Shown one piece after another: positions 13,466 through 54,486 of a DNA stretch of 64,000 bases. A model generated the notes under the pieces. It did not search any database, was not told the DNA's origin, and worked only from the letters and a program-made list of their open reading frames with translations. Position numbers and translations under genes: made by a program. Source of the stretch: Prorocentrum cordatum (lineage: Eukaryota); NCBI GenBank assembly GCA_963575745.1, contig CAUYUJ010000092.1, forward strand, positions 124,001 to 188,000, read 5' to 3'. Within the stretch, counting starts at the first letter, position 1; each line of letters starts with the position of its first letter.

Positions 13466-23845
<10,380 letters not shown>

Positions 23846-31184: not shown

Positions 31185-34100
31185 AGCACCACCATTGCCA
31201 TCATCATCATCATCATCAGCATCATCAGCATCATCATCAGCAGCAGCAGCAGCACCACCAGCAGCATCATCATCACCAGCATCACCAGCAGCATCAGCAT
31301 CAGCATTATCATCACCAGCATCATCATCAGCAGCAGCATCATAATCATCATCAGCATCATCATCGTTCTCACCCTCATTCGCGTCGTTGCCCCATCCTCA
31401 TCCTCGTCGTTCTCCCTCTCTTCGCCCCTACCCTCCCCCGTCACCTGCCCATCCCCTTTCCCTTACTCTCCTATCCTCTTTCCTTCATCCCTTATTATTG
31501 TTCTCATCATCTTCCCTTGTCCTCCTCCGCTTGTTCGTCCTTCTCTTCATCTTCCCTCCCACCCCTCATCTCGATTATTATCCTAGCGCTAATCCTCGTA
31601 CGTACTCCTCCTCCTCCCCCCCCCTCCTCCTCCTCCTCCTCCTCCTCCTCCTCCTTCTCTTCATTCTCCTTCGCCTCCCCCATCCTGCTGCTACTCATCC
31701 TGATCCTCCTCCTTGCCATGCCCAGCTTCCCGCTCATCCTCATCATCATAATCATCATCATAATCATCATCATCATCAGCAGCAGCAGCAGCATCAGCAT
31801 CAGCATCAGCATCAGCATCAGCGGCATCATCATCCCTTGTACCATCATAATCGAAATCTTCGTCATCAGCCTGGTTCCCATCCATCTCTCCCTCATCATG
31901 CTTGTTATCCTGATCCACCCTCCTCTGTCCAAATCCTAGAAGCTGCAGTGTCTCTCTGTTTGGGCTTGCCCTGAGGTCCTGTGGTTGACCGGTGTCGCGT
32001 GCATCTGCCTCGTAGCCGTGATATGGACGCTGGCGACGGTGTTGAAGCAGGTCGCCAGCCGAAGCCCTTCCCTCCTCTTTCCTCCTCATTCTACTCTCCT
32101 CCTCTTCCCGCTCCTGATCCCCATCCTCCACTCACGACCACAGGTCGCGGATCTTGCCAGCTCAGGAGAGGGACGATGATTATCAGGCACGTGCTTGCCC
32201 GATTCACCCCGAAATTGCGTACGGTGGAGGCGTTGGTTAAGGAATGTGTCCAGGAGGCCTCAGGCCCTGCAGGGTTCCTTATCCAATGAGGGCGACGGTG
32301 ATGCCCATGGCCACTCCTCGATGGGAGTTCCAGCAGCAGCCAACGGGCCAGCACCCAGCACGTCTCGCCCGCGCGGGGCCTGGGCGCAGGGCCCGCCAGG
32401 ACAGGGACAGCTTCTGGAGCAGCTGCAGCAGTTGCAGAAGCAGGTGGCAGAGCTCAAGGGCGAGGCCCTGCCCCCGACGGAGCCCTGGAAGGGGCGCAAG
32501 CCCCCGCCCAGGAAGGCTGCCGAGGCGAGTGCTGGCATCTCCTTCAAGGACGTGCGCACCTTCTTGGCGAAGGAGGGGCTTGACACCAGCGCGGTGGAGG
32601 AGGCAGAGAAGGCTGCGGAGTCGAAGACGCTCGAGAGCAAACAGCCTACTGCTCAGACGCAGCGCTGGCGGGTCAAGGCCATGCGCGACAAGATCAAGAA
32701 GCTCGAGTCCCGCGGGGCCGCCATCTTGGAGCAGCAGGCCGCACTCGACATGGAGCTCCAGGAGCTCAGGGTCTTGCTCGGCGACGAGAACCAGAAGCTC
32801 TCCGAGGGGGAGGCCAAGTTGGTCAAGCTGCAGGCCAGCGAGTTCCCCGACCCGATTCTGGCAGTCGCAGCTGGACTGGACGAAGACGTCGCCGCCAGCC
32901 AGGAGGCCAAGGACGCCCTCGCGGTCCTGGCCCGCTTGCAGACCGCAGCCAGCGACAGCAAGAAGGCAGCTGCCGCTGCCAGGGCCGCTGCTGCTCCTCC
33001 TGGTCCTGCTGCTGGGGAGGCAGACGCAGGCGGCGAGCACAAACCAGTGCCAGAATCAGACGACATCGACATGGAGCTGCTGGGAGGAGAAGGCTGGGAG
33101 GCGAAGCGCGAGGAGTACGCCGCAGCCTCAGCAGCCCTCCGAGAAGCGACCCCCGAGCAGCGAGATGAGGCCAAGCGCAAGCTGCGCGACGCCTTGGACG
33201 CGCTCTGGGCTGCAGGCAAGCGGACTCGGCACCTTTGACCCCAGGCCCAACGGGAGCCAGGAGGAGCAGCGTGGCCAAGGGACTGGCAGTCCGCAGTCTA
33301 GCCGAGGGCCCATATGTAATCGTGGGTTGCCCTTTCAGGATGACGTGGCTACAGACTCGGGCGCGAGCCCCCCCTTGGACCTCGTCTGCACGGCGAAGCG
33401 CCGCCCCCAGCCCAGGGCTGAGGCGGCAGGCGCGGCGGTGCCCGCCGCGGCCGCCTTGCTCCAGCTGGCCAAGCTGGCGCGGCCTTCGGCGCAGCAGGGC
33501 GCCAGCTTTCTCAGCATCAACGGCTCCACTTGGGCCGAGTCCCAGACGGCCCTCGAGCAGCTGCTGGGCGAGAAGGTCAGGGACGACGCGTACCTCATCC
33601 AGGAGACCCGCTTCACCTCGGCGTTGGCTGAAGGCTCGGCCCGTGCCTGGTGCAAGCGGAACGGCATCAACGCGGCCTTCGGAGAGTGCCGCAGCACAGG
33701 GACGGCGGTCCAAGCCGTCTCTTCGGGGGTCGCCGTGCTGGTCGGTGAGCACCGCGGAGTGGCCTCGATCGACCAGGTCTGGGGCCAGCACGCCTCAAGG
33801 ATCGTGGCGAGGCGCGTCGCCTTCGGGGACCTGGTCGTGGCGTGCGTCAGCCTTTACCTGCAGTGCTCGGTCAAGCTCAATGAGGCCAACGTGGACCTCT
33901 TGAGTGAGCTGCAGGGTTTCCTCCTGGGTTTGCGGGAACCCCTCGTAGTGGGGGCGGACTGGAACTTGGAGCCCAGCCTCCTCAGCAGCTCGTGGTGGCC
34001 TCGCGCGGTGGGGGCGGTGATAGTGGCGCCCGACGAGCCGACCTGCGGAGGTGGCACATACGACTTCTTCGTGATCTCGGACGTCTTGGCGGGGCTAGGG

Positions 34101-37100
34101 CCGAAGGTGACGGTGCTCAGACAGGCGACTACGCGCCCGCACGCCCCCGTCAGGCTCACTTTCGAGAAGCTGAGCAGCCAGGCAGGTGTCTGGGTGCAGA
34201 AGGGCCCCAAGCCTTTCGAGCTGCCTGCGCCTAAGCAGGAGGGGATCCATCCAGAGCCAGAGGAGGAGGACTCGCTGACGGACTGGAAGGCGCCGCTTCA
34301 GGACGAGAGTGGGGGCCCAAACAAGGCGATCATTGAGTTCTTCGACCAGGCTGAGGAGCGCCTGATACACCTCTTCGGCATCAAGGACGGCGCCAAGTAC
34401 AGAGGCAGGGCGCAGGGACTCAAGAGGGCACCCAAGCAGCTCATTCACCTCCTGCGCTCGGAGGAGGTGCGCAGGACCAGCCCGCTAACGCGCTGCTGGA
34501 TCACCTTGGGGCGCCTGGCCACTCAGCTGGCGGCCGCGGCGTCTGTGCCCCACCCCTCGCCTGGGCACCACAAGCACGTCAAGCGTCTGCAGGCGGCCGC
34601 CCTAGGCTTGGTCCCCAAGTTTGAGGCAGGGGGCTGCGAGATGTTCGGCGGCACCAAGATGGCGGCGATGCTGGCGGAGATCTCGGACAGGTCGCAGCAG
34701 GGCGACATCTTCCTCCAGGCCATCGGCGCCGCCTCTGAGGTCAAGCGCAGGGAGGGCGCGAAGCCCGCCAGGCAGCGCTGGCAGGACTTCATGGCCGAGG
34801 CCCTCAGTGGGAACGGCAAGGGCGCCCACGCGATCAGCAAGCAGGCCAACCTCGAGACCTGCTCCATCCTCGGCCCTGGCGAGGGCGAGGCCCCCCCCCA
34901 GTCCCGCTGGTCGGGCAGCAGGCCCTGGACAAGATCCTTCAGGAGTGGAAGGCGCTCTGGCACAAGGAGGGCTCCGCCAGCGTCCGCCCCGAGAACTGGG
35001 ACGAGCCCATGGGTCTGGACGCCATCACGGCGGAGGATGTGCCGGCAGCGGCTAAGACCTTTCCCAGGAAGACGGCTCTGGGATGGGACGCCTTCCACCC
35101 CAGGCTCATCCTCAGCTTAGGCAGGGTGTACGCGGCCAGGCTGGCTGAGATCTTGACCGCCTGGGAACGGCACCCCCAGCCGTCGGAGCTTTTCACCACG
35201 ATCATCGTCTTCTTGGGGAAGCCCGACGGGGGCCGCCGCCCGATCGGGCCCCTCTGCATGTGGCTGCGCATCTGGAGCCGCATCAGGCGCAAGTACTGCG
35301 CGGGCTGGGAGCGGGACCACAAGCTCCCCGAATATTGGGGGGCAGACTCGGACACCTGCTGCGACAGGGCGGCCTACATCCACAACCTCCTGCTCGGCCT
35401 GGCGCGCGAGAAGAACTTCGAGGCTGCGTCGGTCTACTTCGACATCAGCAAGTTCTACGAGCAGATCAGCCACGGGCTGCTCCTCGAAGCGGCGCGGGGC
35501 TGCGATTTCAACACTGGGTTGATCCAGGCGCTGTGCGTGCTGTACTCGGGCCCCCGCAGGGCCAGGGCCGACCTAGCCCTCAGCGAGCAGCTGGTCATCG
35601 ACGACACCGTCATTGCTGGATGCTCCTGTGCGACGACGATGGCGAGGATCATGCTGTACGACCTCCTGCTGAAGTCGAGGAAGCTGCTGCCGATTGGCAG
35701 GGTGGTCAACGTGATTGACGACATCTCGGGCCACGGCATCGGCACGCGCAGGCTGGTCGTCGAGCAGATCGCCAGGTTCGCGAAGGGCGTCGCCACCATG
35801 CTGGGCGACAAGCGGCTCCCCATCAACTGGGGAAAGACCAAGGCACTGGCCTCCTCGGTGAGGCTGAAGAGAGAGCTGCAGCAGCACGCCGACTGGGTCC
35901 TCGCCGACGAAGCCTTCGTCGCTGGCCACCGCGACCTTGGAGGCGATGCGACGGCGGGCGGCCACCGCAGGGTCGGGACGCAGGTGGCCAGGGAGCTGGC
36001 GGCGCTGCGGCAGGGCAACAACCTCACCAGGATCTTCGGCTCGGGGATGAGGCAGGCCAAGATCCAGAGGGCAGGCCCCGCCGCCAAGGCCCTGTGGGGC
36101 TCGGCCATCAACGGGGTCCCGCCTGGGCGCATGAGGGCGCTCACGATAGCTGCGGCGAAAGCCGCCTGCAACCTGCCGACGGGCGCGGCGCTGACCTTCT
36201 GCTTGCAGTGCGCGCCCCAGGGCTGGAGGCAGGATCCGCTGGTGATTGCGACGGGCCTGGCTGTCCAGGCATTCGTGGCCATGAGCTGGTCTGGCCAGGC
36301 CTCCCCTGCCGCCGTGCAGGCCTGCCTCAGGGACAGCAGCCGACTGGCCTCGCTGCAGAGGCCGTGGGCCGCGGTGCGCGACCCCGTCTCGGCGCTGGTG
36401 CTCACGCTAGGGCGGGTCGGCTGGGGCCTCAGAGCTGGCGGACGCGTCCTGACCGACAGGGGGGGCAGCGAGTTCGACGTCAAGAGGTTCTCGCCCGCCT
36501 TCCTCGCCGCCAGGGTCAAGGAGGACACGCGTCAGGCGGCGTCGCTCGAGGAGTACGTCAGCAGGCCCGAGACCTTCTGGCAGTGGCGGCTGCCGCCGTG
36601 GTGGACGCCGATCAACCAGCTCCTCGGCGCTAAGGAGTCGGAAACCTGGACGGCTCACCACAAAGGCTGCTTGAGACGCTTGGCGTCGCTTGCCAGCTGG
36701 CCCCAGGCCCGACTGGCGAGGCATGGGCGAGAGATCGACCCGCTTTGCAGGCTCTGCGGCGCCGCCCCTGGGACGATGCACCACAGGCACCACGTGTGCC
36801 CAGCCTGGGCGGCCTGGAGGCGGGACTACTGCCCGTACCGGGTGAGACAGGCAGCGGAGCAGGCCCACCGCATGGGGCCCCCCTTCGACGAGCTCTTCAG
36901 TCAGGGGCCCTTCGCCGACATCAGCCTCCTTGTGGCCAGGCCAGCCTGGGATGACAGCTGGGCGCGGCGATCCTGCGGGTGGGGGGACGGCATCTTGGTG
37001 GTGCCCGACGGGTCCTTCGTCTTCACCGACGGCTCGTGCCTGAACGGGGACTTCCCGCACGTCAGGAGCGCTGGCTGGGCCGTCATCGTTTACGGGCCCG

Positions 37101-40100
37101 AGGGGAGGCTCATCGCCGAGGCGTGGGGCGCAGTGCCCCCCATCGACCTCCCGTCGCAGACGGCCAAGGCTTGAGAGGACTTCGCCGCCGCCATCGGCCT
37201 CGCCGACATCATCGGGAACTACACGCTGCTCAGCGACTGCTTGAGCACGGTGAAGGCTGCTTCCAACCTGGCCAAGGCCTGCGGCCCCAGCTCCCTTCAC
37301 GCCCACGTGTGGGCCAGGGTGGGCGATGCAGCGGAGGGCGTCAACATGCGCCACGTGCCCGCCCACCGCGCCGAGGCCGCGGCGCGGGACGGGGAGCTCA
37401 CCCTCTTCGAGCTCGTGGGCAACAGGCGCGCCAACACCAGGGCAAAGGAAGGAGCGGCCTTCCACGCCATAGCGGAGCAGGACGCCCTGATGCTGGAGGG
37501 CTGCCTAGCTCGGGCGAAGGAGGTGGCCAGGTGCGCGGCGGCCCTCGAGGTGCACATCACCGAGTCGGGGCTCAGGGACTCCTGGCCGCTCACCTCCCTT
37601 GACCTCGTGGACCTGGACCCCTTCGCTCCGACGCCCGCCCTGGAGCAGCTGCTGGAGGCCGAGGAGTCGGCTGCCCGTGGCCCTGGCGGATTGGCGGCCT
37701 TGGGGGCGGCAGCAGCGTTGGCGACGGCAGCGGCGGCCAGCCAGGGGGCCCAGGCCCAGGGCCAGGTCGACAAGAAGGTCCGCAAGAGGAAGGAGGCAGG
37801 CGAGGGGCCCGTCGGGCCCAGTGATCCAGCCGCAGACGCGTCGAGCGCGTCGGCGGCCTTGCTTCGCGCGGTCCAGCGCCGCCGCGCAGAGAAGGCGGAG
37901 CGGGCAGCGCCCTCGGCCGCGGGCGCACTGAGCCCGCCCCCGTCGGCTGTGTCGCAGCCCCCCCCCCCCCCCTCCTTCCTCCGTGGCCTCCCCTGCTGCT
38001 GCGGCCGCCGCCCCGCCTCCGCGAGCCCCCATCGGGCCCTGCTGGCCAGGTGAGGACCCCAGGGCCCCATTTTGAGACCCCCGACTCTGGCCAATGTCGG
38101 GGGGCTCAAATTCGATTTTTTCGCGAGCCCGCCCGTCCCAGGATGACCCTGTCGAGTCGGGGGCCTGGGAGGTCAACGGCCACCGTCTTCGGGAATCCCG
38201 CGTTTCAGGCGGTGATGGCCCTGAGTTTTTGGTTTGTGTGGCGTGCTGGATGTATTGCCTGAAACCCCAGTACTGCCACAGAGGCCTAGCCAAGGCCTGC
38301 AGCGGGGCCCAGCGCGCTGACGACCCCAGGGCCAAAAAGGGCTCCAGGGCGCAGGCGCGAAACGATTTCGCGAAGTCGCCTTTGCCTGGGAAATCTAAGC
38401 AGCCGATCGACCAGCTGGCTCGGCCCACAGCGGCCACCCGTACCAGGTGGGCCGAGGCGCTCGGCATGGAGCACCTGAGGGCATGGAGGACCTTGTGGCC
38501 CCTGTAGGCTCCAGAGCCCCCGCCGTGGAGCCCCCAGAGGTGCGGGATCGGGCACCCGCCCCGCCTGCCCCAGGGAGGCTGTTTCGCCCAGGGCTAGAGG
38601 GAGCCCTGGGCTCCTTCGGCTTTGCCAGCGCTGCTGAGGCTCAGGAGCGAGGCAGGGCCGCCAGAGCGGCCAGGATGGCGGACCCCAGGCCTGAAGTCGG
38701 CCAAAGCGCGGAGTGACGGTTGCCGCGCTTCGGGGTCTGGTCCTGGTGGGCTGCGGGCCCGCGCAAGCACTGTTTGCGGGGCCGTAAGACGGCGACTGAA
38801 TTTGTCTGTGCATGATAAGCCCCAGGGTGATAGGATAATTAAACAAAAATGCCTTCACCGTGGTTCCGTCCGGGAGCAGCCCAAACGGCCCATCTTTGCA
38901 GCCCTTGCGTTGGACCCCCCCCCCGACAAGCCAGGGCTTTCCGCGAGGCCGTTCGGGCCCGAGCTGGCCTTTAGGGACAGTTTTTTCCTCCTCCTCCTCC
39001 TCCTCCTCCTCCTCCTCCTCATCATCATCATCATCAGCATCATCATCATCATCCTCATCCTCCTAGTCCTTCTCCTCCTCCTCCTACTCCTCCTCCTCCT
39101 CCTCCTCCTCCTCTGCGCTCTGCCTCATCTCTCCTCGACCTCCTCCTTATCGTCCCTCCTTCGCATCTTGCTTCGCCTCATCATCTCCATCAGCCTGTGC
39201 CTCCCCATTATCCTTCCATACTTCCCCCTCCTATTCCTCCCCTCCATCCCTCGCCCAAGCCCAAGCCCAGTGCGAGGGCAGGACAGGGATGGGGAGGACA
39301 GGGATGGACGCCCAAGCACAGTGCTGGAAAGACAAAGCATCAACTATCCAACAACAAAGTTGGAGACTAACCCGGCGATGGGGCACGGGGTGGGGCGAGC
39401 GAGCACGCTTAAATCACCCGTTTAAAAAACCACGCCGATCGGATCCACCCGTGCCCCGCATGTGTTAAAAAGGCTCGGACTCCCAGCTGTCAGATGGAAG
39501 GCGTGTGGGCAGTAAGGGTGGAGCGTGTGCACAAACGGCGTGGGCGTGGCGCTTCATGTCGGAGGCCGAGTTGGTTCCCTTAAGCGATTTGATGATAAGG
39601 AGCGGAGGGAGGAGCGGAATGGGAGGAGGCAAAGGCGTGGATCTGACATGTACCTCCGCTGTCGTGCACGCAGGAGGTACCACGTGGGATTATAGTGTGT
39701 ACCATGTGGACACGAGCTGCCTTAGGCCCTGGCCCTATACCACGAAGGCACTTGTTTGGCAGCATACCTGGGACAGAGTCCAAGTCCATCAAGCTGGGCT
39801 GCATGTGCAGCCTCGGATGTAAGAGGCTGGAGCCTAGCGGCTAAGACTTCCAGACGCATAGTACTTCGGTGCCGGAGGTGTTTGAGCAGTCTTGGCCTGG
39901 TGTAGAAGTTGGTTATGCAAGCCTGACACGTTCCTGCTACACCAACAGCCTGGACCATGTCGAAGGCGGCATGCTGCTTCGTTCGGTACACGCTCCAAGC
40001 AATGGCACGTGACAAAACGGCGTCGCAATCATGGCAAACGAATTGCACACCGCCGGCACTTTGAGCAGTCGAACAGAACAGGGTCTAGGCAGTGACGCTG

Positions 40101-45492: not shown

Positions 45493-46402
45493 CTTCTTGT
45501 CGTAGCTGTTGCGGGCCCAAGCGGTAGCGCTGCTCACGAAGCTTAGTTTTGTGATGTATTCCCGCATCAAGGAGGCGGTGTGGGGACACCGCTGTATTGG
45601 TTACGCTTGCCTTTTTACCAGTTGTAGAGGCGATGCAGAAGTAGCAATGATCAGGCTTGGGACGCCTTCATCCAAACAAATGACGTTTGGCGTGCCCCCA
45701 CCCCCCTTATCCAGACGCGATTCCCAGACGAATTGACGTGGGAAGCATAGCGGAAAAAAGAGCGGGAGCATCCGCGAAACCAAGGCTCGGGTCAGCCCGA
45801 GCAGTCCCCAACAACGACCAACTTGGATGTATTTGGAAGCCTCCTGGAGCCATATTGGGGGTCTCGTGGGGCCGTATTGGGGTTCTCGTCGGGCTGTCTT
45901 GGGGGCCGTTGGGGCCCTCTCCGGACCATCTTGAGAGCCACTGGTCAGAGAAAAGGGCCCGTTGACTCCCCCACCCCACCACTTGTTGGGAACCGGAAGA
46001 GTCGTCTCTGCCATGTTTCTTAGGGCACTTTGGGGTAATCCTGGAAGCCTATGGTGCCCTCTTATAGTTCCTCTGGGCCTTCTCGAGGCCATCTTAGGGC
46101 AATACCGAAGCCTGAAAACCCATCGGAGGTAGAACGTCGAGACGGCACACAGCACCGCAGTATTTGACTACGTTGGGCCTCCGGACTTACCCCGGCGGAG
46201 CAAACGGACCGAGGCCGCGGAGCAACTGAAACCAAGCGGCGGAGCAACTGAAACCAAGCGGAGGAGCGGCGGAGCAACTGAACCCAAGCGGCGAAGGGCG
46301 AGGAGGAGGGGGAGGAGGCGGAGGAGTGGAAGGGAGAGGAGGAGGAGGAGGAGGAGGAGGAGGAGGAGGAGAAGGAGGAGGAGGATCAAGTGGAGGAGGA
46401 GG

Positions 46403-46424
46403 ACCGTAGCCATTTTGGCTCAAG
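46403..46424 (+). other. Genomic copy of the dinoflagellate spliced leader (DinoSL) at a LINE 5' end
   Basis: ACCGTAGCCATTTTGGCTCAAG, a 22/22 match to DCCGTAGCCATTTTGGCTCAAG; not followed by GT, so not an SL RNA gene. Confidence 0.95.
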
Positions 46425-49400
46425 ACGGAGCTTACCTCCCGTCCCGACTCCAGAGGCTCGAGGTCGAGGTGGAAGGGCAGCCCCTTCCTCAGGCCTGTCT
46501 GCCTCGGCCAGCTTTCGGCAACTTGCTCGTTTGAGCACAGCTTTCGGCTCCCGCGGGGGGCGCAGTGATGTACTTGCGTCGTGCAGGTGGTGGTCAGTTC
46601 AATGCTGGACTCGGGCCCATCTGTCCAACGTGCGGGTGCAAGAAGAATCCTGGCCACTTCAAGTTTTGCTACCATTGCCGCAGCCCGCTTCCTTTTCTTC
46701 GTGGGGGTGGGCCTCCTCGTGGCGATGGTGCAGCTTGGGGACCCCAGGGACCAGTCAAAGGTGGTGGTAAGGGTCGTGATGGTCACAAAGGAGTTGGTAA
46801 CACCAATCGGAATGGAGGAACCAGCCCCCTCGACGACCTACATCGGCTCAATCAGTTAGCAGAAGGCAAGCTCAAATACACTCTCTCCCCAGCAGTTCGT
46901 GACGCTATTTCGGCGGCATGGACCACGGCCCAGAGTGAGAAGCAGGCCTCTGCCCCGATCAGTCAAAGGATGGCTAAAGTGGAGCAGGACATCAAGCGCC
47001 GTGGGAAGATGACCGCCAACATGTCCGAGGCCCACGGGAAGCTGTCCACCCAGATTTCAGATTTGGAGGATAAGCGTGCACAGTTGGCAGCAGACTTGGC
47101 ACAGGAGAAGATGGACTTGGTTGAGGCTCTGAAGATCGTGGCTATGCGAGTCCCGTCGATGCCCAAGGTCGATGAGTTCGCGCAGCAGCTGGAGGCCTTC
47201 AAAGCGCACCTGGCGGGGCTGGGCGAGCAGAATGACCCAGCGGCATTGCGGGCGTCAATGGAGACTGCTTACAAGGACTTGGAGGCCAAGTTCGGTGAGG
47301 TTTTTCGCAATCCACACTACCCAGGCCCACGTGACCCTGAAGCTGAACACAGCTGGCGTGGCGCTGATGAAGGAGGTGTTCTGCCAGCTGAGGACGAGGT
47401 CATGCATGTTGATGTGTCCGAGTTGGGAGAGGTTGTTGGCTCCGTCACTGGCCACTCCGACGAGCACAAGCGCGAGTTCCTCGACGCTTTTCGCTCCCAG
47501 GCAAAGAAGGCACAGCATCGCTCTCCAGGACCGCGCCCAGTGGCTACTTCATTGGATCCGTCGCTACATCCAGGAGGTTCAGCCTGGGACTCTATGCGAT
47601 AGCCGCCCCTCGGCCCTGTCCTCGTCGGGCAGTGGCCGCGAAGAGGGTGGCGGCGCTACATCGGCATCATCAAGTTCTGGGGCTGCGAGTTCGTCGGCAG
47701 CTTCATCTGTGGCGGTGACAGGACCATCACAGACGTTGGCCTGTGGAGTTACAAGTACTTCAACAGGCACTTCAACCATGTCGTCTGCGGCTCGAGCTTC
47801 GACCCTCGCCCGAGCGTCGGAGGCTGCGCCGGGCCCTTTTCTCTTGGGGGAAAAAAAGCGAAGTCGGCATTCAAAGTTGTCGCCACCTTTAACGGCACCA
47901 GCATGCAGTCAGCTGCTCGTGAGGAGGGTGGGGGGCAGGCTTCTCGGAAAAAGCGCGGCGTTGGCTTTCGGGGCCTCCTCAAGGCCACGGAGGCCCCTGT
48001 TTGTTTCTTTCAGGAGCATAAATCGCGGGGTCCCTTACTGCTGCGGGCTGTTGCTTCGATTCAGCGCGAAGGCTGGCGAGTTTTCACATCGGATTGCATC
48101 TCCATTGACTCGGGGAACCCCTCAGGGGGCACCATGGTTGTCACTCGTAGGCACTTGGGCTGTTGGAATACCCCTGGGGCCTCCAGCTGTATATTTCCTG
48201 GGAGAGTGTCTCGGTGTTTCTTACGCAGTGGGAGTTTTGGGTTTATTTCTCGCTACTCCGTCTACTTAAAGGACTCCATCGGGCTCGTAGGTGTGAACCT
48301 CAAGGCCCTTATGGCTATCGTCTCGGACATCGTGGGCCACGGCTTGCCCTACATCATAGGTGGGGACTTCAATGTGAAGCCAGGTGCCCTTGCAGCGTGG
48401 GAGCCTCTTACCAAGTTACAGGGTGTGGTTCGTGCCGCATCCACCCCGCGGTCGTCTCGGATGATAAGGCAACTATGATCGACCTCTTCATCCATAGTCG
48501 GATTCTTGACCGAGTTGGCGGCGATGTCAGCGTTGACTTGCACGGGGCGTTCAGCCCACATCGGCCAGTGTACCTTGGTCTGAAGCATGTCGGGGGAGAT
48601 GCTATGGTTTCGGTTCCCAAACCCTACCAAGTCGCCCCTCCTGAACCCAGCATCGGCCCTCGTAGGACCCCTCCTGAGCATCGCGATCTCCAGGGGCCCT
48701 TGCCGGCTTTCTTGGGCCAACATGACGATGGGGATGGTTCTTCGTTTGTGCTTTCTGGGACTGCTCGTCAGGCTGGCATTCGGCCGCTCAACCAAACGTA
48801 TGAGGCTTGGAGGGGGCGCGCCTGGAAGGAAGTTTTGGAGGCTACTCAGACGGTTCATCCTCGCGGTCTCCCTGCAGCGACTCCTCTAGAGTTCCAGGCT
48901 GTCAGCGTCAGATGCTCGTTGCGCGTGTGCATCGTCGTGCTTCCCCTGGTCGCGCCATTTTGCGGGTCCAGAACCGGCTTCGGGAACTGCGCCACTTATT
49001 CGCTAAACCACGTGATCGGATTGAGTACAGAGGGCCCCTGCTCAGGCAATGGGTCGACCTCCCTCGGCGCGGCGGGGTCTTCAGGAGGCACTGGCGGCAG
49101 GGCGCAGTGTTCTAGCATCCTTTTCTTGCGAGCGTCGCTAGCAGACTCCTGGATTTAAAGATTGGTGTTGGCCCTATTGTCTTGATTGATGAAGTTTCTA
49201 ATATTGTTCAGCTTTGGGAGCGTTATGGGCAACTTCAGGAGCGGAAGCTTTCGAGGGATTCTTGGGCTAAGTGGTGCGCGGACCCTGTCAGCAACCATTG
49301 CAAGCAGGCTTATTCATTTTTGCGATCAGGAGCTTCACTCTTAGAGGAAGTTGTGGACTTCGACGGCTCGTTTCCCCGTGCTCTTCCTCAGCGGCTTGCT

Positions 49401-52400
49401 GCTGAGCGTGCTCATTGGAGGCAAGCTTGGCGTGCTGAAGATGCTCCGCGTGAGGTCCCAGGAGTTCCTCTGCCGTTCAAGGCGCCTGCCCCGCCTGCTG
49501 CCCCAGGGGAAAAGCTTCGGACCATCAGTCTGAAATTCAAATCTGGCACTTGTGTTCCTGATGGTTTCCATCCGCGGCACTTCTCGATGCTTTCTAGAGC
49601 TGGTTTAGATATCTGATCTAGCATGTATCATCTTATGGATGTGGTTGGTCAGGCACCTTTATGCATGCAGCAGCCGGTGGTCTTCCTGATGCCGCAGGTC
49701 AACAAAGGACGGCGGCCGATAGGACACTACAGCGGCTTCACTAGGCTCCATGGAAAGACTCACAGGGCCCCGTGCAGGGCCTGGGAAGCACCCTGTGGGC
49801 TCGGAGCGGAGTTCTCCATGGGGCAGGGAAGGTCCGCGCTCGACGCGGTCTGGAGGCAGAGCACGCGCGCGGAAATGCACACGGGGCTCCATGTTCACTA
49901 CTGCACGCTCCTGTGGGATCCCCTGAAGTTCTATGAGCACATACAACACCACATCTTGGGCAGAGAAGCTGTAAAAGCTGGTTCCCCCATGTATGTGTTA
50001 GCTTTTACTACGGGGACTTGTTCGTGGAAGCGGCCCTTGCTTCTGGATTGGGGCCTATGCTGATGTTTCATGGCCCACGAGGGGTATTGTTGCTGGGAGT
50101 ACTTCGGCCACGTACGAGGCCAAGGCTTTCATGCTCCCCTCAGTCCTCGCTGGGCCCAACTTTGAGCGCACGTCTCAGGCGTTGCACGTGGGCGACCTCT
50201 CTCTGCGCTCTCGGCATGAGTCCATGGAGTTGTGCGTTGGCCAGCTCAAGTCTTTGGCAGTTTTTCTTGCGCGCCAGATCAATGACGCGCTGCAGGCGCC
50301 ACTGGCGATCAAGAAGATGTATGCAGCAGCCAATGGCAGCAATATGTTGACTCTGGTCCTGGATCGGCTTCAGGAGTTGGCTGGGGCACCTGAGTGGAGC
50401 CCAGCCAACCTAGGTGTTTCTTTCACTGCTGGACGCCACCAGCAGCAACCTTTTGCTCGAGCTGTTCGTAGGCAGCGTATGCGGACGTTCAGGCACAAGA
50501 ATACCAGGCGGGGGTCCCTCAAAATACCCAGGAAGCTCAAAGCCATGTTATTCCAAACAAGTCTTCTTCCCACTGTATCCTTTGGGATGGAAGTCCAGGG
50601 CATTACTCCGTACGTAATCCTTGGGCTCAGAAGGTCAGCGGGGAAAGCGCATGGCGTGGCCAAGAGGGGCCAAAAGTGGCGTTGTCCAAATGGGAAGGTG
50701 ACCCACTTTCGTTGGCCCCAGGTCCCCTCAGGAGGTACTCTTGGGAACGGCGGCAGATTTCTCAACCGGGGCCCCAAGGAGGTCCTCGACATGCAGATGC
50801 TCTCTCGCCAGGTGAACTGAGCAGGGCCTTCCACGCAGCCCCCCTTCAGGTCTCTCAGTCCAAGGGTCGCCCCTGGCTTTATAGGACTCGAGGGCCAGTC
50901 AGTGCTATGCTTCTGTTGTTGGAGAGGGCTGGGTGGCCCCGGGAAGGAGCGGCCACTTTCGTTTGTCCTCACGGGAGGAGGCGGGTCCTCACCGAGAGCC
51001 CACCGCAGCAAGTTGCGGCTGCATTCACTCGTGATTTAGCTCATGTCTATTTCTCGAAGTTTTTAGATTAGTTGGATCCTTCTTTAGCTGGAGGTCTGCG
51101 GCTACCTGCTATGCAACGTGCGGCGAAAGCCCTCCCAGCTGCGCATAGCCATCTGTACAGACAGGTGGTTGCGAATGCTCTTCCGACATGTCAGGCCCTC
51201 ACAAGATGGGGATACAGAGTCGAGCATGAGCGCCCTCTCTGTGGGCAGCCAGTAGACAGCTTCTGGCATCGTGCGTGGCTGTGTGAGCATGAGTTGCCTG
51301 CTGGAGTTCGTCGGCAGCACTTTAGTGCAGAAGTGATTTCACAAATCATTCAAGCTGGCCCCAATTCGCCGCTTGCGTCGAGGCTTTTGATTGGATCTCT
51401 GGAGCCCCCGACCCCTTCCGACGACTGGGACTTACGGTTTTTCGAAGGGTCGTCGGGCACTCCGCGCGCCCCGTTCTGGTTTGAGCTCGACGATAATGTT
51501 TTCACGGACGGGAGCTGCTATCGCGGAGACCGTGAGGAGATAGCTCGTGGTGGTTTTGCCGCCGTCCAAATGTCTGGTGAGCGTGTTGTGAGGGGAGTGC
51601 ATGGCCCTTTGCCTGCACGCTTTGAGCAAACCTCAGGTGTCTCAGAGCATGCTGCCCTGGCTGTCGCAGTGCGCAGGCGAGTTCCCCATGGGACCGATGA
51701 GAGACCCACCCCCGTCGTCGTCGATTACCAGTAGTTGTTTCGAGGGGTTGATGCCCCCGCCAAGGCTCTCTCGGGATCCTCGCCCTTTAGTTCCTTCTGG
51801 AGGGAGATTTCCAGGCATCTCGGCCACGAGTCTCCGTGGGTGACTTTGAAGTAGGTCAAGGCCCACCAGCGCGTGACTGACGATATGCATCAGGCAACTC
51901 GAGAGCTCGCCCAGGGCTCGCGCGCGGTTGATTGGTGGGCGAAGCAAGGTGCGAAACTCCATGACCTTGCCCCACCTGGGTTAGATGCTTTCGAGGACGC
52001 TGGAAATCAGCACTCTGCGTTGTGCATAGGAGTGTGTGATGTTTTAGCCGCAATTTCCGTCTACTGAATCTTTGCATGGGAAGCTCGAAAGGGCTCGCCC
52101 TCCTAGGGTTAGAGCCCCCAAGAGCCTCCACGTGCCCGTGCGCCATGGGGATGTCCTTCGGTGCACGCGGTGCCTCCGCATAGTAAATCCGACTTCCACC
52201 AGCCTCTGTGAAGATGTCAATCCTTCTCTCTCTCTGCCCTCCTCAGAGGGGGGGCGGGGGGGCGGCGCAAACTTCACTGGGCCAGAGAGTTGGAGTCGGA
52301 TATTCCATATGTGTTCTGCGTTTCTGCGGAGGTTTCGCTTCCTGTAAAGGGGGGGAGAAGCTCCGCAAGCCGCGCGCCCTCCCCAAGAAGAGCTCGGAGC

Positions 52401-52871
52401 GTTCCAAGTCCAAGCTTTTGAGGGGTGAGGTCCCAGGGCCCACCCATAGGCTTGGCCAGTCTTTCCCCTTCTCCCCCCTTCCCTCTTTCCCGCCCCCTCT
52501 CCCTCCGCCCCTTCCCGCCCCCGCCCAGGCTGGCCCAAGCTCTGGGGGGCCTGCTGCTGCTGCTGCTGCTGCCTCTCCTGGCCGTGCGGTTACGAGCCTA
52601 GCCCAGGTTCGAGCCGCCCGCGCCCCCCTCAGGCGGGGGGGGGACGAAGCTCCTCCATTTCCTGCCGTGGGAGCCAGGAGCCAGGCCAGCGGTGGCTCTG
52701 ACTGAGGGTCCTCTTTCTTTCTTTTCCTTGTTGTAGTGCGTTGAGTGCCCCGCGGATGTTCAGGCGCACTTCTGGTCGCCGAGGTCGCTGGAGGAGGAGG
52801 AGGTGGAGGTGGAGGAGGAGGCGGAGAAGGAGGAGGAGGGGGAGGAGCCGCCGGGGAGATCGGGATGACGT
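46403..52871 (+). mobile_element. Degenerate full-length non-LTR retrotransposon starting with DinoSL, flanked by a 20-bp direct repeat
   Basis: ORF1 46565-47602 (CPTCG..N...FCYHC finger, coiled coil); APE FFQEH, SGGTMV, IGGDFN, IDLFI, FSPHRPV; RT KGRRPIG, WDPLKFYE, LHVGDL; RNase H VFTDGSC; GGATCAAGTGGAGGAGGAGG at 46383-46402 and 52872-52891. Confidence 0.9.
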
Positions 52872-54486
52872 GGATCAAGTGGAGGAGGAGGAGGAGGAGG
52901 AAGAGGAGGAGGAGGAGGAGGAGGAGGAGGAGGAGGACGGATGATCTCTTCCAGGACGGCGGAAGAGGTGTACATAGTGAGACAGCGTGGGCAACAACGG
53001 TGAATTGGGAGATCTCTGGTAGCGAAGTTGCAACCCGGGTGCAACTTCGCAGTCCCAGTTGCAACTGGGGTGCATTCAGTTGCTCCGCCAATTGCTTCGT
53101 GGGCCTCCGAGGCCTCTTGGAAGCATGTCGGAGGTCTTTTGGTGCATATTGAGCGATTTGGAACCATATCGAAGCCATTGACTACGCCATGACACCTTGC
53201 TCCCCACCACCCCCACCCACACCCACCCTGCAGACCCAGGGGAGGAGATGTGAAAGGGGAGGGGTCAAGTCCCAAGCAGGAAGGCCGTAAGCCAGCTCGC
53301 TCACTTCACCCCGCCGTCCACAATCTGAGTAGCACCCGAGACTGGGCGTTGGCAGCTGTCGCCATCCAATTGATGCAAGCGGGAACCAACACAGTCGCCA
53401 AGTGCGCCATTCTCTCGCGGTGCGCCAGGCGTGCCAGGCGCGCCGCTCGCGCCAGGTGAGCCAGGTGCCCGGGCGTGCCAGGCATGCCTGCGGCAGAAGG
53501 GACACGTCTGCCACGTGCTGCAGGCTCGCCACGTGCGCAACGGGCGCGGGGTGCTCAACGTGCGCCAGTGGACATGGCAGCACACATCGCGCAATACGTC
53601 GACAAACCCACCACCCCAGCCAAGAACAAGTGATAGGTGATTGTGAGGCGGCCAGCGTCGACCACTGAATATGAGTTTGGCAAGGATGGTGGGCCATCGA
53701 ACTGCGGAGTGTTTGGTTGACCAAAGCATTCGCAAAATGATGGGTGGATGGTTGGTGATGGTTCAATGTTGCATTGCTTTGACAGGGATGGCGGGGGGAC
53801 GCATTTTTGTTCTGGCGGCCACTCGGTTGGGGGAGCGAGACGTGAATTAATTTGGAGCGGTGGTAGACCCCTCCCAGAAGGATAAAAAAAAGGCTTAGAA
53901 GACCTGATGCGGTAAATCGCCTATGCCCAGATGGTTGGTGGGATTGGGCTTGCGGTTGGGGTCTGGCTTGTCTTGTGAAAATGCATTATGATTGGCGCGC
54001 CGATCAAGTTGTTTTCGTGGCTCGGGCGCTGGCCCGTCGCGCGCACATGCAATGCCATGCTAAAAGGTATGATGCGCAATGACGCGCTACCCCGTGCTGT
54101 GATACGCTGAGCCAGGTGGTGTTTGCCAGGCCATGTTGCGCGATGCATGCCATGAACTGCTATCATGAGCTGTGCCAATCACTGCAACGTCTGGCCATGC
54201 TGTGTTGCGTATTGTTTGGCCGTGCCTCACGATGCAAATACATGCATGCGTTTATGTATATACGTCACCATATAGACATACGCATTTACACGTGCACATA
54301 GATGCACACGCAAGAGTGCATTGGCGTTTCGCGCCATGCGCTTTGGCCTTGCAGGATCGGAGCGCAGGCGGCAGGCGGTGCGCGGGCAAGAGAGAGCGAG
54401 ATACAAAGAGAGCGAGAGAGAGAGAGAGAGAAGACCCGACAGGACGAATGTTTCGTGGTGGCGTTCGCCCCATCGTTGTTACAACT

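What the first reader, a model, noticed from the sequence alone, without database searches (positions are those of the whole stretch)
46383..52891. Full-length LINE whose first 22 nt are a perfect spliced leader: retrotransposition of a trans-spliced element RNA
Seen: the exact DinoSL ACCGTAGCCATTTTGGCTCAAG starts immediately after the left copy of a 20-bp direct repeat (putative TSD), about 140 nt before ORF1 of an APE-RT-RNase H element. Established: DinoSL is added to mRNAs by trans-splicing, and SL relics mark retroposed host genes. Inference: this LINE's RNA was SL-trans-spliced and copied to its very 5' end. The integrated SL carries an internal AG (CCGTAG|CC) that can serve as the next trans-splice acceptor, so the element could define its 5' end by trans-splicing rather than by an internal promoter.
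Basis: partly seen in the sequence, partly recalled or inferred. Interest (0 to 1): 0.85.

Follow-up and report, generated by a model that had tools for sequence, protein, structure and literature searches.

The report
Spliced-leader-capped LINE insertion, dinoflagellate genome
A dead but end-to-end copy of a jumping gene (LINE) sits between two 20-base target duplications and starts with the exact 22-base leader that dinoflagellates add to their messenger RNAs, so the copied RNA ended in that leader; whether the whole family makes its front end this way is not settled.

Summary
The exact DinoSL lies at 46403-46424. It is the only copy in the window. It starts right after the left copy of a perfect 20-bp direct repeat (46383-46402 / 52872-52891), whose 11-nt non-microsatellite core occurs only at those two places. 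Between the repeats lie 6,469 nt of a non-LTR retrotransposon: a 143-nt leader, an intact ORF1, then APE, RT, a zf-RVT-like region and RNase H-like motifs. The ORF2 part is broken by at least 4 frameshifts and 4 in-frame stops. There is no poly(A) tail.

Best reading: an RNA that ended in an SL and contained the LINE was reverse-transcribed to its 5' end by target-primed insertion into a (GGA)n microsatellite.

The wider claim, that the family defines its 5' end by trans-splicing at the AG inside the SL, is not supported by this copy, because no SL relic follows the SL. It could not be tested on other copies because no genome is held.

One low-coverage DNA run shows a multi-copy family. Four contigs diverge from the window just inside the SL's 5' end. 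In that run the leader is 10-40 times deeper than the LINE body. This is unexplained, and it keeps open a rival in which the leader is foreign and was joined on by template switching or splicing. Eleven papers were checked (text-term passages in nine, listing only in two); the passages and listings seen report no SL-headed LINE. I rate it a new variant of a known process, of moderate interest.

The parts
46300..46402 (.). Left part of the host (GGA)n microsatellite into which the element inserted
   Evidence: TRF reports period 3, 34.7 copies, at 46300-46403; sequence read.
46383..46402 (+). Left target-site duplication, GGATCAAGTGGAGGAGGAGG (20 bp; 21 bp if the A at 46403 is counted)
   Evidence: Exact repeat of 52872-52891. 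Its 11-nt core is exact only at these two sites in the window.
46403..46424 (+). [quoted passage not shown]
   Evidence: Exact and the only match in the window; 0 of 100 shuffles gave a match. It is followed by ACGGAG, not by the GT and T-rich motif used to class 29 metagenomic contexts as SL RNA genes.
46425..46567 (+). 143-nt leader (5' UTR) between the SL and the ORF1 ATG. It has no SL relic. It is much deeper than the LINE body in run X1.
   Evidence: Sequence. No Rfam match at E up to 5. Fold z-score -0.30. Depth 156 in bin 46402-46652 and 289 at 46464, against about 1-20 in the body.
46568..47602 (+). ORF1, 344 aa, intact. It has an N-terminal CxxC...CxxC zinc-finger-like motif and a coiled-coil-like middle.
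   Evidence: ORF lists. The only Pfam hit is a weak leucine-zipper match (LPP, E 0.005). There are 11 relatives at E up to 0.001, mostly fragments. P0001 is 90% identical over residues 231-324.
47540..47573 (+). 34-nt segment that begins GT and ends AG and is absent from the related protein P0001. Without it ORF1 runs on into the linker and APE.
   Evidence: tblastn of P0001 pieces matches 47258-47539, then 47574-47855 in another frame, then 47831-48376; sequence.
47831..48478 (+). Apurinic-type endonuclease (APE) domain, in frame 2
   Evidence: Exo_endo_phos E 0.0015, below the Pfam cut-off. P0001 residues 181-345 match at 73% identity. The APE part of P0002 matches 48200-48400, E 9e-6.
49509..50820 (+). 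Reverse transcriptase region, broken (frame 0 to frame 1, with in-frame stops). The YxDD position reads HVGD by eye.
   Evidence: tblastn of P0002 (RVT_1 at residues 573-787) matches 49509-50129 at E 1.8e-24 and 50050-50334 at E 5e-10. phmmer of 50002-50820 against P0002 gives E 2.8e-4. Pfam RVT_1 itself was not detected on the pieces.
51126..51290 (+). zf-RVT-like zinc-binding region downstream of the RT
   Evidence: PF13966 E 0.0022, below the cut-off. It is collinear with the same region of the second LINE in the window.
51480..52064 (+). RNase H-like region (FTDGSC ... EHAAL ... VKAHQ ... AVDWWAKQGA), interrupted by two in-frame stops
   Evidence: Motifs read from the translations and an alignment of FTDGSC with the second LINE. 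Pfam found nothing in the two pieces, so this part is inference.
52065..52871 (+). 3' untranslated region. It includes a GGA-rich stretch (about 52790-52846) and ends ...GGGATGACGT with no poly(A).
   Evidence: Sequence; TRF. Whether the last ~90 nt belong to the family or are 3'-transduced flank is not known.
52872..52891 (+). Right target-site duplication
52892..52937 (.). Right part of the host (GGA)n microsatellite
   Evidence: TRF reports period 3 at 52790-52937.

Best explanation
This is a dead, end-to-end copy (6,469 nt, 46403-52871) of a non-LTR retrotransposon. Its order is ORF1, APE, RT, zinc finger, RNase H-like region. It inserted by target-primed reverse transcription into a (GGA)n microsatellite and made a 20-bp target-site duplication.

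The RNA template carried the 22-nt DinoSL at its 5' end. That is, a LINE-containing transcript had been SL trans-spliced at an acceptor 143 nt upstream of ORF1, and the reverse transcriptase copied it to the cap-proximal nucleotide.

Shown: the SL, the TSD, the LINE domains, the multi-copy family and the decay of the copy.

Inferred: that the 143-nt leader is the element's own 5' UTR; that the transcript arose by read-through or host-driven transcription on the + strand; and that the insertion was made by a LINE-type enzyme, acting either in cis or in trans.
For: 1. The exact SL starts at the first base after the left TSD.
2. The 20-bp repeat is perfect and its 11-nt core is unique to the two flanks. 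Flank similarity beyond it is only microsatellite.
3. LINE identity: P0002 (RVT_1 plus Exo_endo_phos) matches the RT region at E 1.8e-24 and 5e-10, and the APE region at 9e-6. Weak Pfam hits to Exo_endo_phos and zf-RVT agree. The architecture is collinear with a second LINE in the window.
4. The SL is followed by ACGGAG, not by the GT and T-rich motif used to class 29 metagenomic contexts as SL RNA genes.
5. The base before CCGTAG is A. Among 104 non-gene genomic SL contexts from metagenomes it is A, T or G in 97, which fits copying of the first SL nucleotide.
6. The family is multi-copy. In run X1, 176 contigs lay on the stretch: 19 at 99% identity or more, 29 at 95-99%, 67 at 90-95% and 61 under 90%. 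Four contigs have loose ends just before 46404. A diverged contig with indels at 46426-46434 spans the SL/leader junction.
7. A related ORF1-APE protein is listed under a EukProt source name. Whether that record derives from a transcriptome is my recollection, not a call result.
8. The recognisable host ORFs (RING at 14550-15353, aspartyl protease at 27113-27943) and both LINEs are on the + strand, which is compatible with co-directional read-through transcription.
Against: 1. There is no poly(A) or other recognisable 3' tail, so the 3' boundary rests on the TSD alone.
2. In run X1 the leader bin (46402-46652) has depth 156, and 289 at position 46464, against about 1-20 in the body bins. The leader therefore has many more copies than the LINE and may not be its native 5' UTR.
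3. No second copy lies in the window and no genome is held, so SL presence at other 5' ends is known only from the ambiguous loose ends.
4. No independent example was found. 0 of 126 SL-bearing metagenome loci matched the LINE proteins. 0 of 88 ORFs downstream of an SL had RVT, and 0 of 36 on a relaxed rescan had RVT or APE. Most of those contigs are too short to reach an RT, so this test is weak.
5. No empty-site allele (a joint across the whole insertion) appeared in the laid runs.
Confidence: 0.6

Rival explanations
1. Chimeric 5' end. The LINE RNA itself was not trans-spliced at this site. The SL plus all or part of the 143-nt leader comes from another abundant SL-capped RNA. It was joined to the LINE either by RT template switching at the end of first-strand synthesis (as in U6/L1 and mRNA/L1 chimeras) or by cis-splicing of an upstream host exon onto the LINE before retroposition.
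For: In run X1 the leader is 10-40 times deeper than the LINE body: about 76-79 at 46426-46434, 289 at 46464 and 156 as the bin mean, against about 1-20. The leader copies also look homogeneous: only one well-supported difference is listed there, T>C at 46464 in 15 contigs, while body contigs are mostly under 95% identical. By my arithmetic the deep segment ends near the ORF1 ATG. [quoted passage not shown]
Against: ORF1 has a complete N-terminus that aligns from about its Met with relatives (P0008). No junction signature or second UTR is visible in 46425-46567. No well-supported loose end between 46425 and 46652 is among the 10 shown, although 69 loose ends were not shown. The depth excess could instead come from non-autonomous elements that share the LINE's leader, or from partial matches of an abundant GAGG-rich repeat.
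Confidence: 0.25
2. The SL belongs to the target, not to the RNA. Either the LINE landed in or beside an SL RNA gene (as SLACS, CZAR and CRE elements do in trypanosomatids), or the SL is part of an older retrocopy that was already at the site.
For: Site-specific LINEs in SL RNA genes exist in another SL-using lineage (recalled, not from a call). Genomic SL copies are common in dinoflagellate DNA: 133 distinct contexts came from one capped scan.
Against: The SL lies inside the TSD pair, not outside it. It is followed by ACGGAG, not by a GT start or the T-rich motif seen in the 29 contexts classed as SL RNA genes. No second half of an SL gene lies at the right end. Joining left flank, one TSD and right flank by eye gives an uninterrupted GGA microsatellite with no SL.
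Confidence: 0.04
3. Artefact or chance: a misassembly that joined a cDNA-like read to genomic sequence, or a chance 20-bp repeat in a microsatellite.
For: The insertion sits in low-complexity GGA DNA, where assemblers err. X1 contigs were cut at 46290-46392 and 52783-52947.
Against: The 11-nt unique core of the repeat is exact only at the two flanks. 0 of 100 shuffles gave an SL match. 19 X1 contigs match the stretch at 99% identity or more.
Confidence: 0.05

Closest known systems
Dinoflagellate retrogenes tagged by DinoSL relics (Slamovits & Keeling 2008, as cited in the papers read; Song et al. 2017, PMC5585692, passages seen; Song et al. 2018, PMC6050394; PMC12014239)
   Same: A DNA-encoded SL marks reverse transcription of a trans-spliced RNA. 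The SL sits upstream of the coding sequence. Song et al. 2017 report the GO term 'RNA-dependent DNA replication' enriched among retroposed genes in both retroposition bouts, so RT-encoding genes are probably already among those counted as SL-tagged retrogenes (my reading).
   Different: Here the retroposed unit is the retrotransposon itself, with a complete 22-nt SL, no relic, a 20-bp TSD and no poly(A). The retrogene papers say that the enzyme behind retroposition is unknown, and the 2018 review calls LTR elements (Ty1/copia) the more likely mediator. This locus shows a non-LTR, TSD-making insertion of an SL-bearing RNA.
Trypanosomatid L1Tc / ingi LINEs with the Pr77 internal promoter (PMC1874656 and PMC8190864; titles and abstract starts seen in the listing)
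   Same: LINEs living in a genome where mRNAs get a spliced leader. A short 5' module is shared by autonomous and non-autonomous elements, which is one possible reading of the over-abundant leader here.
   Different: Pr77 drives transcription from inside the element and yields unspliced (not trans-spliced) transcripts. Here the copied RNA did carry the SL. No promoter activity was tested.
SLACS / CZAR / CRE site-specific non-LTR elements in trypanosomatid SL RNA genes (recalled; no call)
   Same: A LINE physically next to a spliced-leader sequence.
   Different: Those elements insert into the SL RNA gene, so the SL gene is the target and flanks the element. Here the SL is inside the TSD, the target is a GGA microsatellite and no SL gene intron is present.
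HDV-like self-cleaving ribozymes at the 5' end of R2, L1Tc and other LINEs (recalled; no call)
   Same: A way to cut a defined LINE 5' end out of a read-through co-transcript without an own promoter. SL trans-splicing would do the same job.
   Different: No ribozyme or other Rfam family matches 46300-46750 at E up to 5, and the leader folds no better than shuffles (z -0.30). The 5' end here is an added exon, not a cleavage product.
L1 5' chimeras (U6/L1, mRNA/L1) made by template switching (PMC13174262, abstract start seen in the listing)
   Same: A foreign RNA 5' end fused upstream of a LINE within one TSD pair.
   Different: No junction or 5'-truncated LINE is visible here, and ORF1 is complete. 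This is kept as the main rival, not the best reading.

Membership tests
Non-LTR (LINE) retrotransposon with APE | Reverse transcriptase domain of the LINE type | tested here: met
   tblastn of P0002 (RVT_1 at 573-787, E 1.8e-11; Exo_endo_phos at 1-167) matches 49509-50129 at E 1.8e-24 and 50050-50334 at E 5e-10. Pfam RVT_1 was not detected directly on the broken pieces.
Non-LTR (LINE) retrotransposon with APE | N-terminal apurinic-type endonuclease | tested here: met
   Exo_endo_phos E 0.0015 (18.7 bits, below the 24.5 cut-off). The APE part of P0002 matches 48200-48400 at E 9e-6. The support is weak but consistent.
Non-LTR (LINE) retrotransposon with APE | Target-site duplication flanking the whole insertion | tested here: met
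   A perfect 20-bp repeat whose unique 11-nt core occurs only at the two flanks.
Non-LTR (LINE) retrotransposon with APE | 3' poly(A) or simple-repeat tail | tested here: not met
   The element ends ...GGGATGACGT directly before the TSD. A GGA-rich stretch lies 25-90 nt upstream of the end. Not all LINE clades have a tail, so this does not exclude membership.
Non-LTR (LINE) retrotransposon with APE | Dispersed multi-copy family | tested here: met
   176 contigs of run X1 lay on the stretch at 80-100% identity. There are 11 ORF1 relatives at E up to 0.001 in the representative library. No second copy lies in the window.
   Motifs FTDGSC...EHAAL...VKAHQ...AVDWWAKQGA were read, and FTDGSC aligns with the second LINE. 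Pfam found nothing in the two pieces.
DinoSL-tagged retrocopy (retroposed trans-spliced RNA) | DNA-encoded SL at the 5' end of the copied unit, not followed by the SL RNA intron | tested here: met
   contrast with the 29 contexts classed as SL RNA genes.
DinoSL-tagged retrocopy (retroposed trans-spliced RNA) | Truncated relic(s) CCATTTTGGCTCAAG after the SL, the sign of repeated cycles | tested here: not met
   No relic follows the SL. The only relic-like 15-mer with 13 or more matches in the window is the SL itself. At most one cycle is therefore visible.
DinoSL-tagged retrocopy (retroposed trans-spliced RNA) | Poly(A) tail from the mRNA | tested here: not met
SL RNA gene | SL exon followed by a GT splice donor and a short intron ending in a T-run | tested here: not met
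   The SL is followed by ACGGAGCTTACC. 29 of 133 metagenomic contexts were classed as SL RNA genes because the SL is followed by GT and a T-rich motif (e.g. CCTTTT) within 45 nt. There is no Rfam match.
Site-specific LINE of SL RNA genes (SLACS/CZAR/CRE type) | Insertion inside an SL RNA gene, with SL gene halves on both sides | tested here: not met
   The target is a GGA microsatellite and the SL lies inside the TSD.
LINE with a 5' HDV-like ribozyme | Ribozyme fold at the 5' end | tested here: not met
   No Rfam family matches at E up to 5 in 46300-46750. Fold z-score -0.30.

The most novel reading that the evidence does not exclude
The SL plus the 143-nt leader is a mobile 5' module. In this dinoflagellate a LINE family, and many non-autonomous partners that share the leader, have no internal promoter. 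They are transcribed by read-through from the co-directional host gene arrays. Their exact 5' end is rebuilt in every generation by SL trans-splicing at the AG that ends the integrated SL (...CTCAAG|ACGG). Each daughter then carries exactly one perfect SL and no relic. The same LINE machinery, with roughly 20-bp TSDs and a taste for microsatellites, would be the long-sought source of the SL-tagged retrogenes that make up over 20% of dinoflagellate genes.
Probability: 0.2. Interest if true: 0.8.

Novelty: new variant of a known kind. Interest (0 to 1): 0.55.

Why it matters
Dinoflagellate genomes hold thousands of SL-tagged retrogenes. The papers read here say that the reverse transcriptase responsible is unknown, and the 2018 review calls LTR elements the more likely mediator.

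This locus shows an RNA that ended in an SL, copied to its first nucleotide and inserted with a 20-bp TSD, with no LTRs and with APE and RT domains on board. It is direct structural evidence that LINE-type target-primed reverse transcription handles SL-capped RNA in a dinoflagellate.

It also yields a genome-wide test: do SL-tagged retrogenes show the same TSD length and the same preference for microsatellites?

If the family regularly regenerates its 5' end by trans-splicing, that would be a promoter-free answer to the LINE 5'-end problem. It would parallel the 5' ribozymes of R2 and L1Tc, and it would contrast with trypanosomatid LINEs, whose transcripts are unspliced.

Tried and rejected
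- Whole-genome search: no genome is held for this window.
- Self-BLAST of the element, the leader and the flanks against the window: no second copy.
- Sequencing runs: no RNA holder is listed. One DNA run (X1) holds 0.27 of the sampled words; X2 and X3 hold next to none. The single read-laying run gave no joint across the insertion (no empty site). Cover at 52677-52927 was lost to repeat skipping.
- Metagenome scan with a 25-mer of the leader: 0 matches.
  - 0 of 126 loci matched 12 LINE protein queries by tblastn at E 1e-3.
  - Of 125 ORFs of 130 aa or more downstream of non-gene SLs, I scanned 88. The 37 dropped were mostly shorter or alternative-frame ORFs. 0 of 88 had RVT, and 1 of 88 (L002) had Exo_endo_phos with no RT nearby.
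  - A rescan of 36 long ORFs at E up to 0.02 gave 0 with RVT or APE; one (L056) has a CCHC zinc knuckle.
  - Most contigs reach less than 2 kb downstream of the SL, so this is a weak test.
- Viral-contig scans with P0001 and ORF1: no relatives.
- A protein search with the antisense open frame that runs across the leader and SL, hoping for mis-called ORFs from other copies that would expose their flanks: 0 hits.
- PDB sequence searches with the second LINE's ORF2 and with P0002: 0 hits.
- Rfam on the whole window and on the 5' end: nothing.
- Earlier findings of this scan, by words, place and sequence: nothing.
- Literature. Three searches ran; one search failed on a term-syntax error. I read only passages found by text terms in PMC7245778, PMC3229502, PMC3942190, PMC12014239, PMC8045281, PMC5585692, PMC6050394 and PMC11453091. 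None of the passages seen describes a LINE that starts with an SL. Supplements were not opened, and the tables of retrogene families in Song et al. 2017 may list such cases.
- Rejected: an SL RNA gene, a site-specific insertion into an SL gene, and a 5' ribozyme (see the membership tests).
Full report
**Observation**

The window is GC-rich (60%) with no N. The 22-nt dinoflagellate spliced leader ACCGTAGCCATTTTGGCTCAAG lies at 46403-46424 on the + strand. It is the only match in 64 kb even at 3 mismatches, and 0 of 100 shuffles gave a match. No other 10-mer or 12-mer of the SL occurs on either strand.

Directly before it lies GGATCAAGTGGAGGAGGAGG (46383-46402). The same 20 bp recur exactly at 52872-52891. 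The other 14 matches at up to 3 mismatches are plain GGA-microsatellite words with 2-3 mismatches. The non-repetitive core GGATCAAGTGG is exact only at the two flanks. The repeat is therefore not a satellite word.

The base after the right copy is A, like the first base of the SL. The duplication is thus 20 or 21 bp, and the first SL nucleotide is formally ambiguous. Beyond the repeat the two sides are alike only through GGA repeats (TRF). Left flank, one repeat copy and right flank, joined by eye, read as one continuous (GGA)n tract.

**What lies between the repeats**

The insertion is 6,469 nt (46403-52871). After the SL comes a 143-nt leader, then ORF1 (46568-47602, 344 aa, intact). ORF1 has a CxxC...CxxC motif near its N-terminus. 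Its only Pfam hit is a weak leucine-zipper match. It has few relatives: one in the word-indexed search (P0001) and 11 at E up to 0.001 in the exhaustive representative search, mostly short fragments.

Downstream the coding capacity is broken into frames 2, 1, 0, 1, 0, with in-frame stops at about 49614, 50061, 51069, 51732 and 51852.

- The APE region gives Exo_endo_phos at E 0.0015, and a later piece gives zf-RVT at E 0.0022. Both are below the Pfam cut-offs.
- RT identity comes from homology. P0002 is a 1,069-aa protein from an ENA record with RVT_1 (residues 573-787) and Exo_endo_phos (residues 1-167). It matches 49509-50129 at E 1.8e-24, 50050-50334 at E 5e-10, and 48200-48400 (APE) at E 9e-6.
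- RNase H rests on motifs I read in the translations (FTDGSC, EHAAL, VKAHQ, AVDWWAKQGA) and on collinearity with the second LINE. Pfam found nothing there.
- The element ends ...GGGATGACGT with no poly(A). A GGA-rich stretch lies shortly before the end.

The copy is therefore full-length in extent but dead.

**What the SL is not**

A capped scan of metagenome contigs for the 21-nt SL gave 126 loci with 139 SL sites, which reduce to 133 distinct contexts. My script classed 29 of them as SL RNA genes because the SL is followed by GT and a T-rich motif (for example CCTTTT) within 45 nt; most of these read SL + GTA...CCTTTT. Here the SL is followed by ACGGAGC, and Rfam finds nothing.

A site-specific insertion into an SL gene is excluded because the SL lies inside the duplication and the target is a microsatellite. 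A 5' ribozyme is not indicated: no Rfam family matches, and the fold z-score is -0.30.

**How it most likely arose**

An SL at the first base inside a TSD means that the cDNA ended on an SL. The template RNA had therefore been trans-spliced and was copied to its 5' end.

In the metagenomic sample the base before CCGTAG in the 104 non-gene contexts is A in 43, T in 49, G in 5 and C in 7. This fits the variable first SL nucleotide being copied as well. Here it is A.

Twelve of the 133 contexts show the known recycling product, an SL followed by CCATTTTGGCTCAAG. That product comes from trans-splicing at the internal AG of an integrated SL. This LINE copy has no relic. It records a single capture, or else the acceptor is the AG that ends the SL, which would regenerate one exact SL and leave no trace.

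The recognisable ORFs in the window all lie on the + strand: RING at 14550-15353, aspartyl protease at 27113-27943, and both LINEs. This is compatible with read-through transcription followed by trans-splicing, but it rests on only two host genes.

**Family-level evidence**

No genome is held and no second copy lies in the window. One DNA run (X1) holds 0.27 of the stretch's sampled words. Laying its contigs at 80% identity or more placed 176 contigs: 19 at 99% or more, 29 at 95-99%, 67 at 90-95% and 61 under 90%. This is a multi-copy family of mixed age.

Four contigs have loose ends just before 46404, so they share the sequence from CCGTAG rightwards and differ upstream. One diverged contig with three small indels at 46426-46434 spans the SL/leader junction. 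These are hints that other copies also start at the SL. The overhangs are short (median 11 nt), however, and 69 further loose ends were not shown.

**An unexplained point that cuts against the simple reading**

Depth in X1 is about 1-20 in the LINE body bins. It is 156 in bin 46402-46652, about 76-79 at 46426-46434, and 289 at 46464, where 15 contigs carry C instead of T. By my arithmetic the deep segment is about 125-130 nt long and ends near the ORF1 ATG. The leader thus has many more copies, and more uniform ones, than the LINE. Three explanations are possible:

- Many non-autonomous elements share this 5' module, as Pr77 is shared in trypanosomatids.
- The leader is foreign and was joined to the LINE by template switching or splicing. 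This is the main rival.
- An abundant GAGG-rich repeat matches part of it.

I could not tell these apart. The one scan for the leader in metagenomes found nothing, and a protein search with the antisense open frame over the leader and SL found nothing.

**No independent example**

Among the SL-bearing metagenome loci, 0 of 126 matched the LINE proteins. 0 of 88 downstream ORFs had RVT (88 of 125 ORFs were scanned). 0 of 36 on a relaxed rescan had RVT or APE. Most contigs are too short to reach an RT, so this says little.

**Comparison with what is known**

SL relics as marks of retroposed genes are established. The passages read include:

- a statement that the enzyme behind retroposition is unknown;
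- the 2018 review's view that LTR elements are the more likely mediator.

Song et al. 2017 also report 'RNA-dependent DNA replication' as an enriched GO term in both retroposition bouts. RT-encoding genes with SL relics are therefore probably already in their lists, though not described as such.

In the passages seen in eight dinoflagellate papers, and in the listings of three literature searches, I saw no description of a LINE that begins with an SL. Supplements were not opened.

In trypanosomatids, the other well-known SL lineage, L1Tc-type LINEs use an internal promoter and give unspliced transcripts (titles and abstract starts). Here the copied RNA carried the SL. I therefore rate this a new variant of a known process, not a new kind of system.

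**Verdict**

The core inference, that an RNA ending in an SL and containing the LINE was retroposed to its very 5' end, is well supported. Its weak point is whether the leader is the LINE's own. The larger idea of trans-splicing as the family's way to define its 5' end stays open.

Interest is 0.55. The locus ties LINE-type insertion to SL-capped RNA and makes the question of who makes dinoflagellate retrogenes testable. It is, however, one decayed copy, and an SL on a dinoflagellate mRNA is expected.

Noticed in passing
window 32241-37174 (+), extending to about 37500: A second, much better preserved LINE of a distantly related family. It has two long open frames, 32241-35120 (959 aa) and 34739-37174 (811 aa), with RVT_1 at E 0.003. 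P0002 matches its APE (33711-34169) and RT (35024-35953). FTDGSC RNase H-like motifs follow. Its nearest Atlas clusters carry RVT_1, Exo_endo_phos_2 and RNase_H. No SL within 3 mismatches lies upstream. Its ends and TSD were not determined.
   Followed up: partly
window 47540-47573 and about 47831-47855: Compared with the related protein P0001, the window copy has 34 extra nt that begin GT and end AG and are flanked by a CCAG microhomology. It also has a frame difference of 1-2 nt (not resolved) further on. Without these, ORF1 would run on into the linker and APE as one frame. This could be a tiny retained intron or a microhomology deletion in the other copy.
   Followed up: partly
window 46402-46652: In run X1 the SL-proximal leader is 10-40 times deeper than the LINE body: 156 as the bin mean and 289 at 46464, with 15 contigs carrying C instead of T. 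The cause is unknown.
   Followed up: partly
window 46766-46990, 48314-48448, 50209-50586: Two ORF1 relatives from the protein library (P0007, P0009) both match ORF1 only up to 46990 and then continue at 50209 (RT) or 48314 (APE). They are either internally deleted derivatives or spliced forms that share one break point.
   Followed up: no
window 46192-46296 (+) and 53086 (-); also 52928-53178: The host site is itself repetitive. A 22-30-nt unit GCGGAGCAACTGAAACCAAGCG occurs 3-4 times left of the insertion, and its core is inverted on the right. Both flank bins are deep in X1 (38 and 60).
   Followed up: no
Loci L019, L054, L059, L096, L116 (also L005, L066, L070, L112, L114 by eye): Genomic, non-gene SL copies in metagenome contigs often sit directly after microsatellites (GT, CT, AT, CAT, GGGT, CA repeats), as the (GGA)n does here. 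5 of 98 contexts scored 0.85 or more periodicity in the 24 nt upstream, against 3 of 663 random control positions.
   Followed up: partly
Loci L002, L003, L017, L018, L043, L045, L047, L061-L063, L124, L125; L073/L074: AT-rich metagenome contigs (up to 118 kb) carry complete DinoSL copies in the DNA right after ...TTTTA and just before ORFs, with up to 3 per contig (L061). ORFs on these contigs include DNA polymerase beta, a RecQ-type helicase and DUF4116 repeats. A separate GC-rich contig (L073/L074) with two SLs encodes an NCLDV major capsid protein. These may be viruses or other genomes that encode the host's leader in front of their genes.
   Followed up: no
window 14550-15353 (+), 27113-27943 (+): The only host-like ORFs with Pfam support are a RING finger and an aspartyl protease. 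Both are on the + strand, like both LINEs.
   Followed up: no
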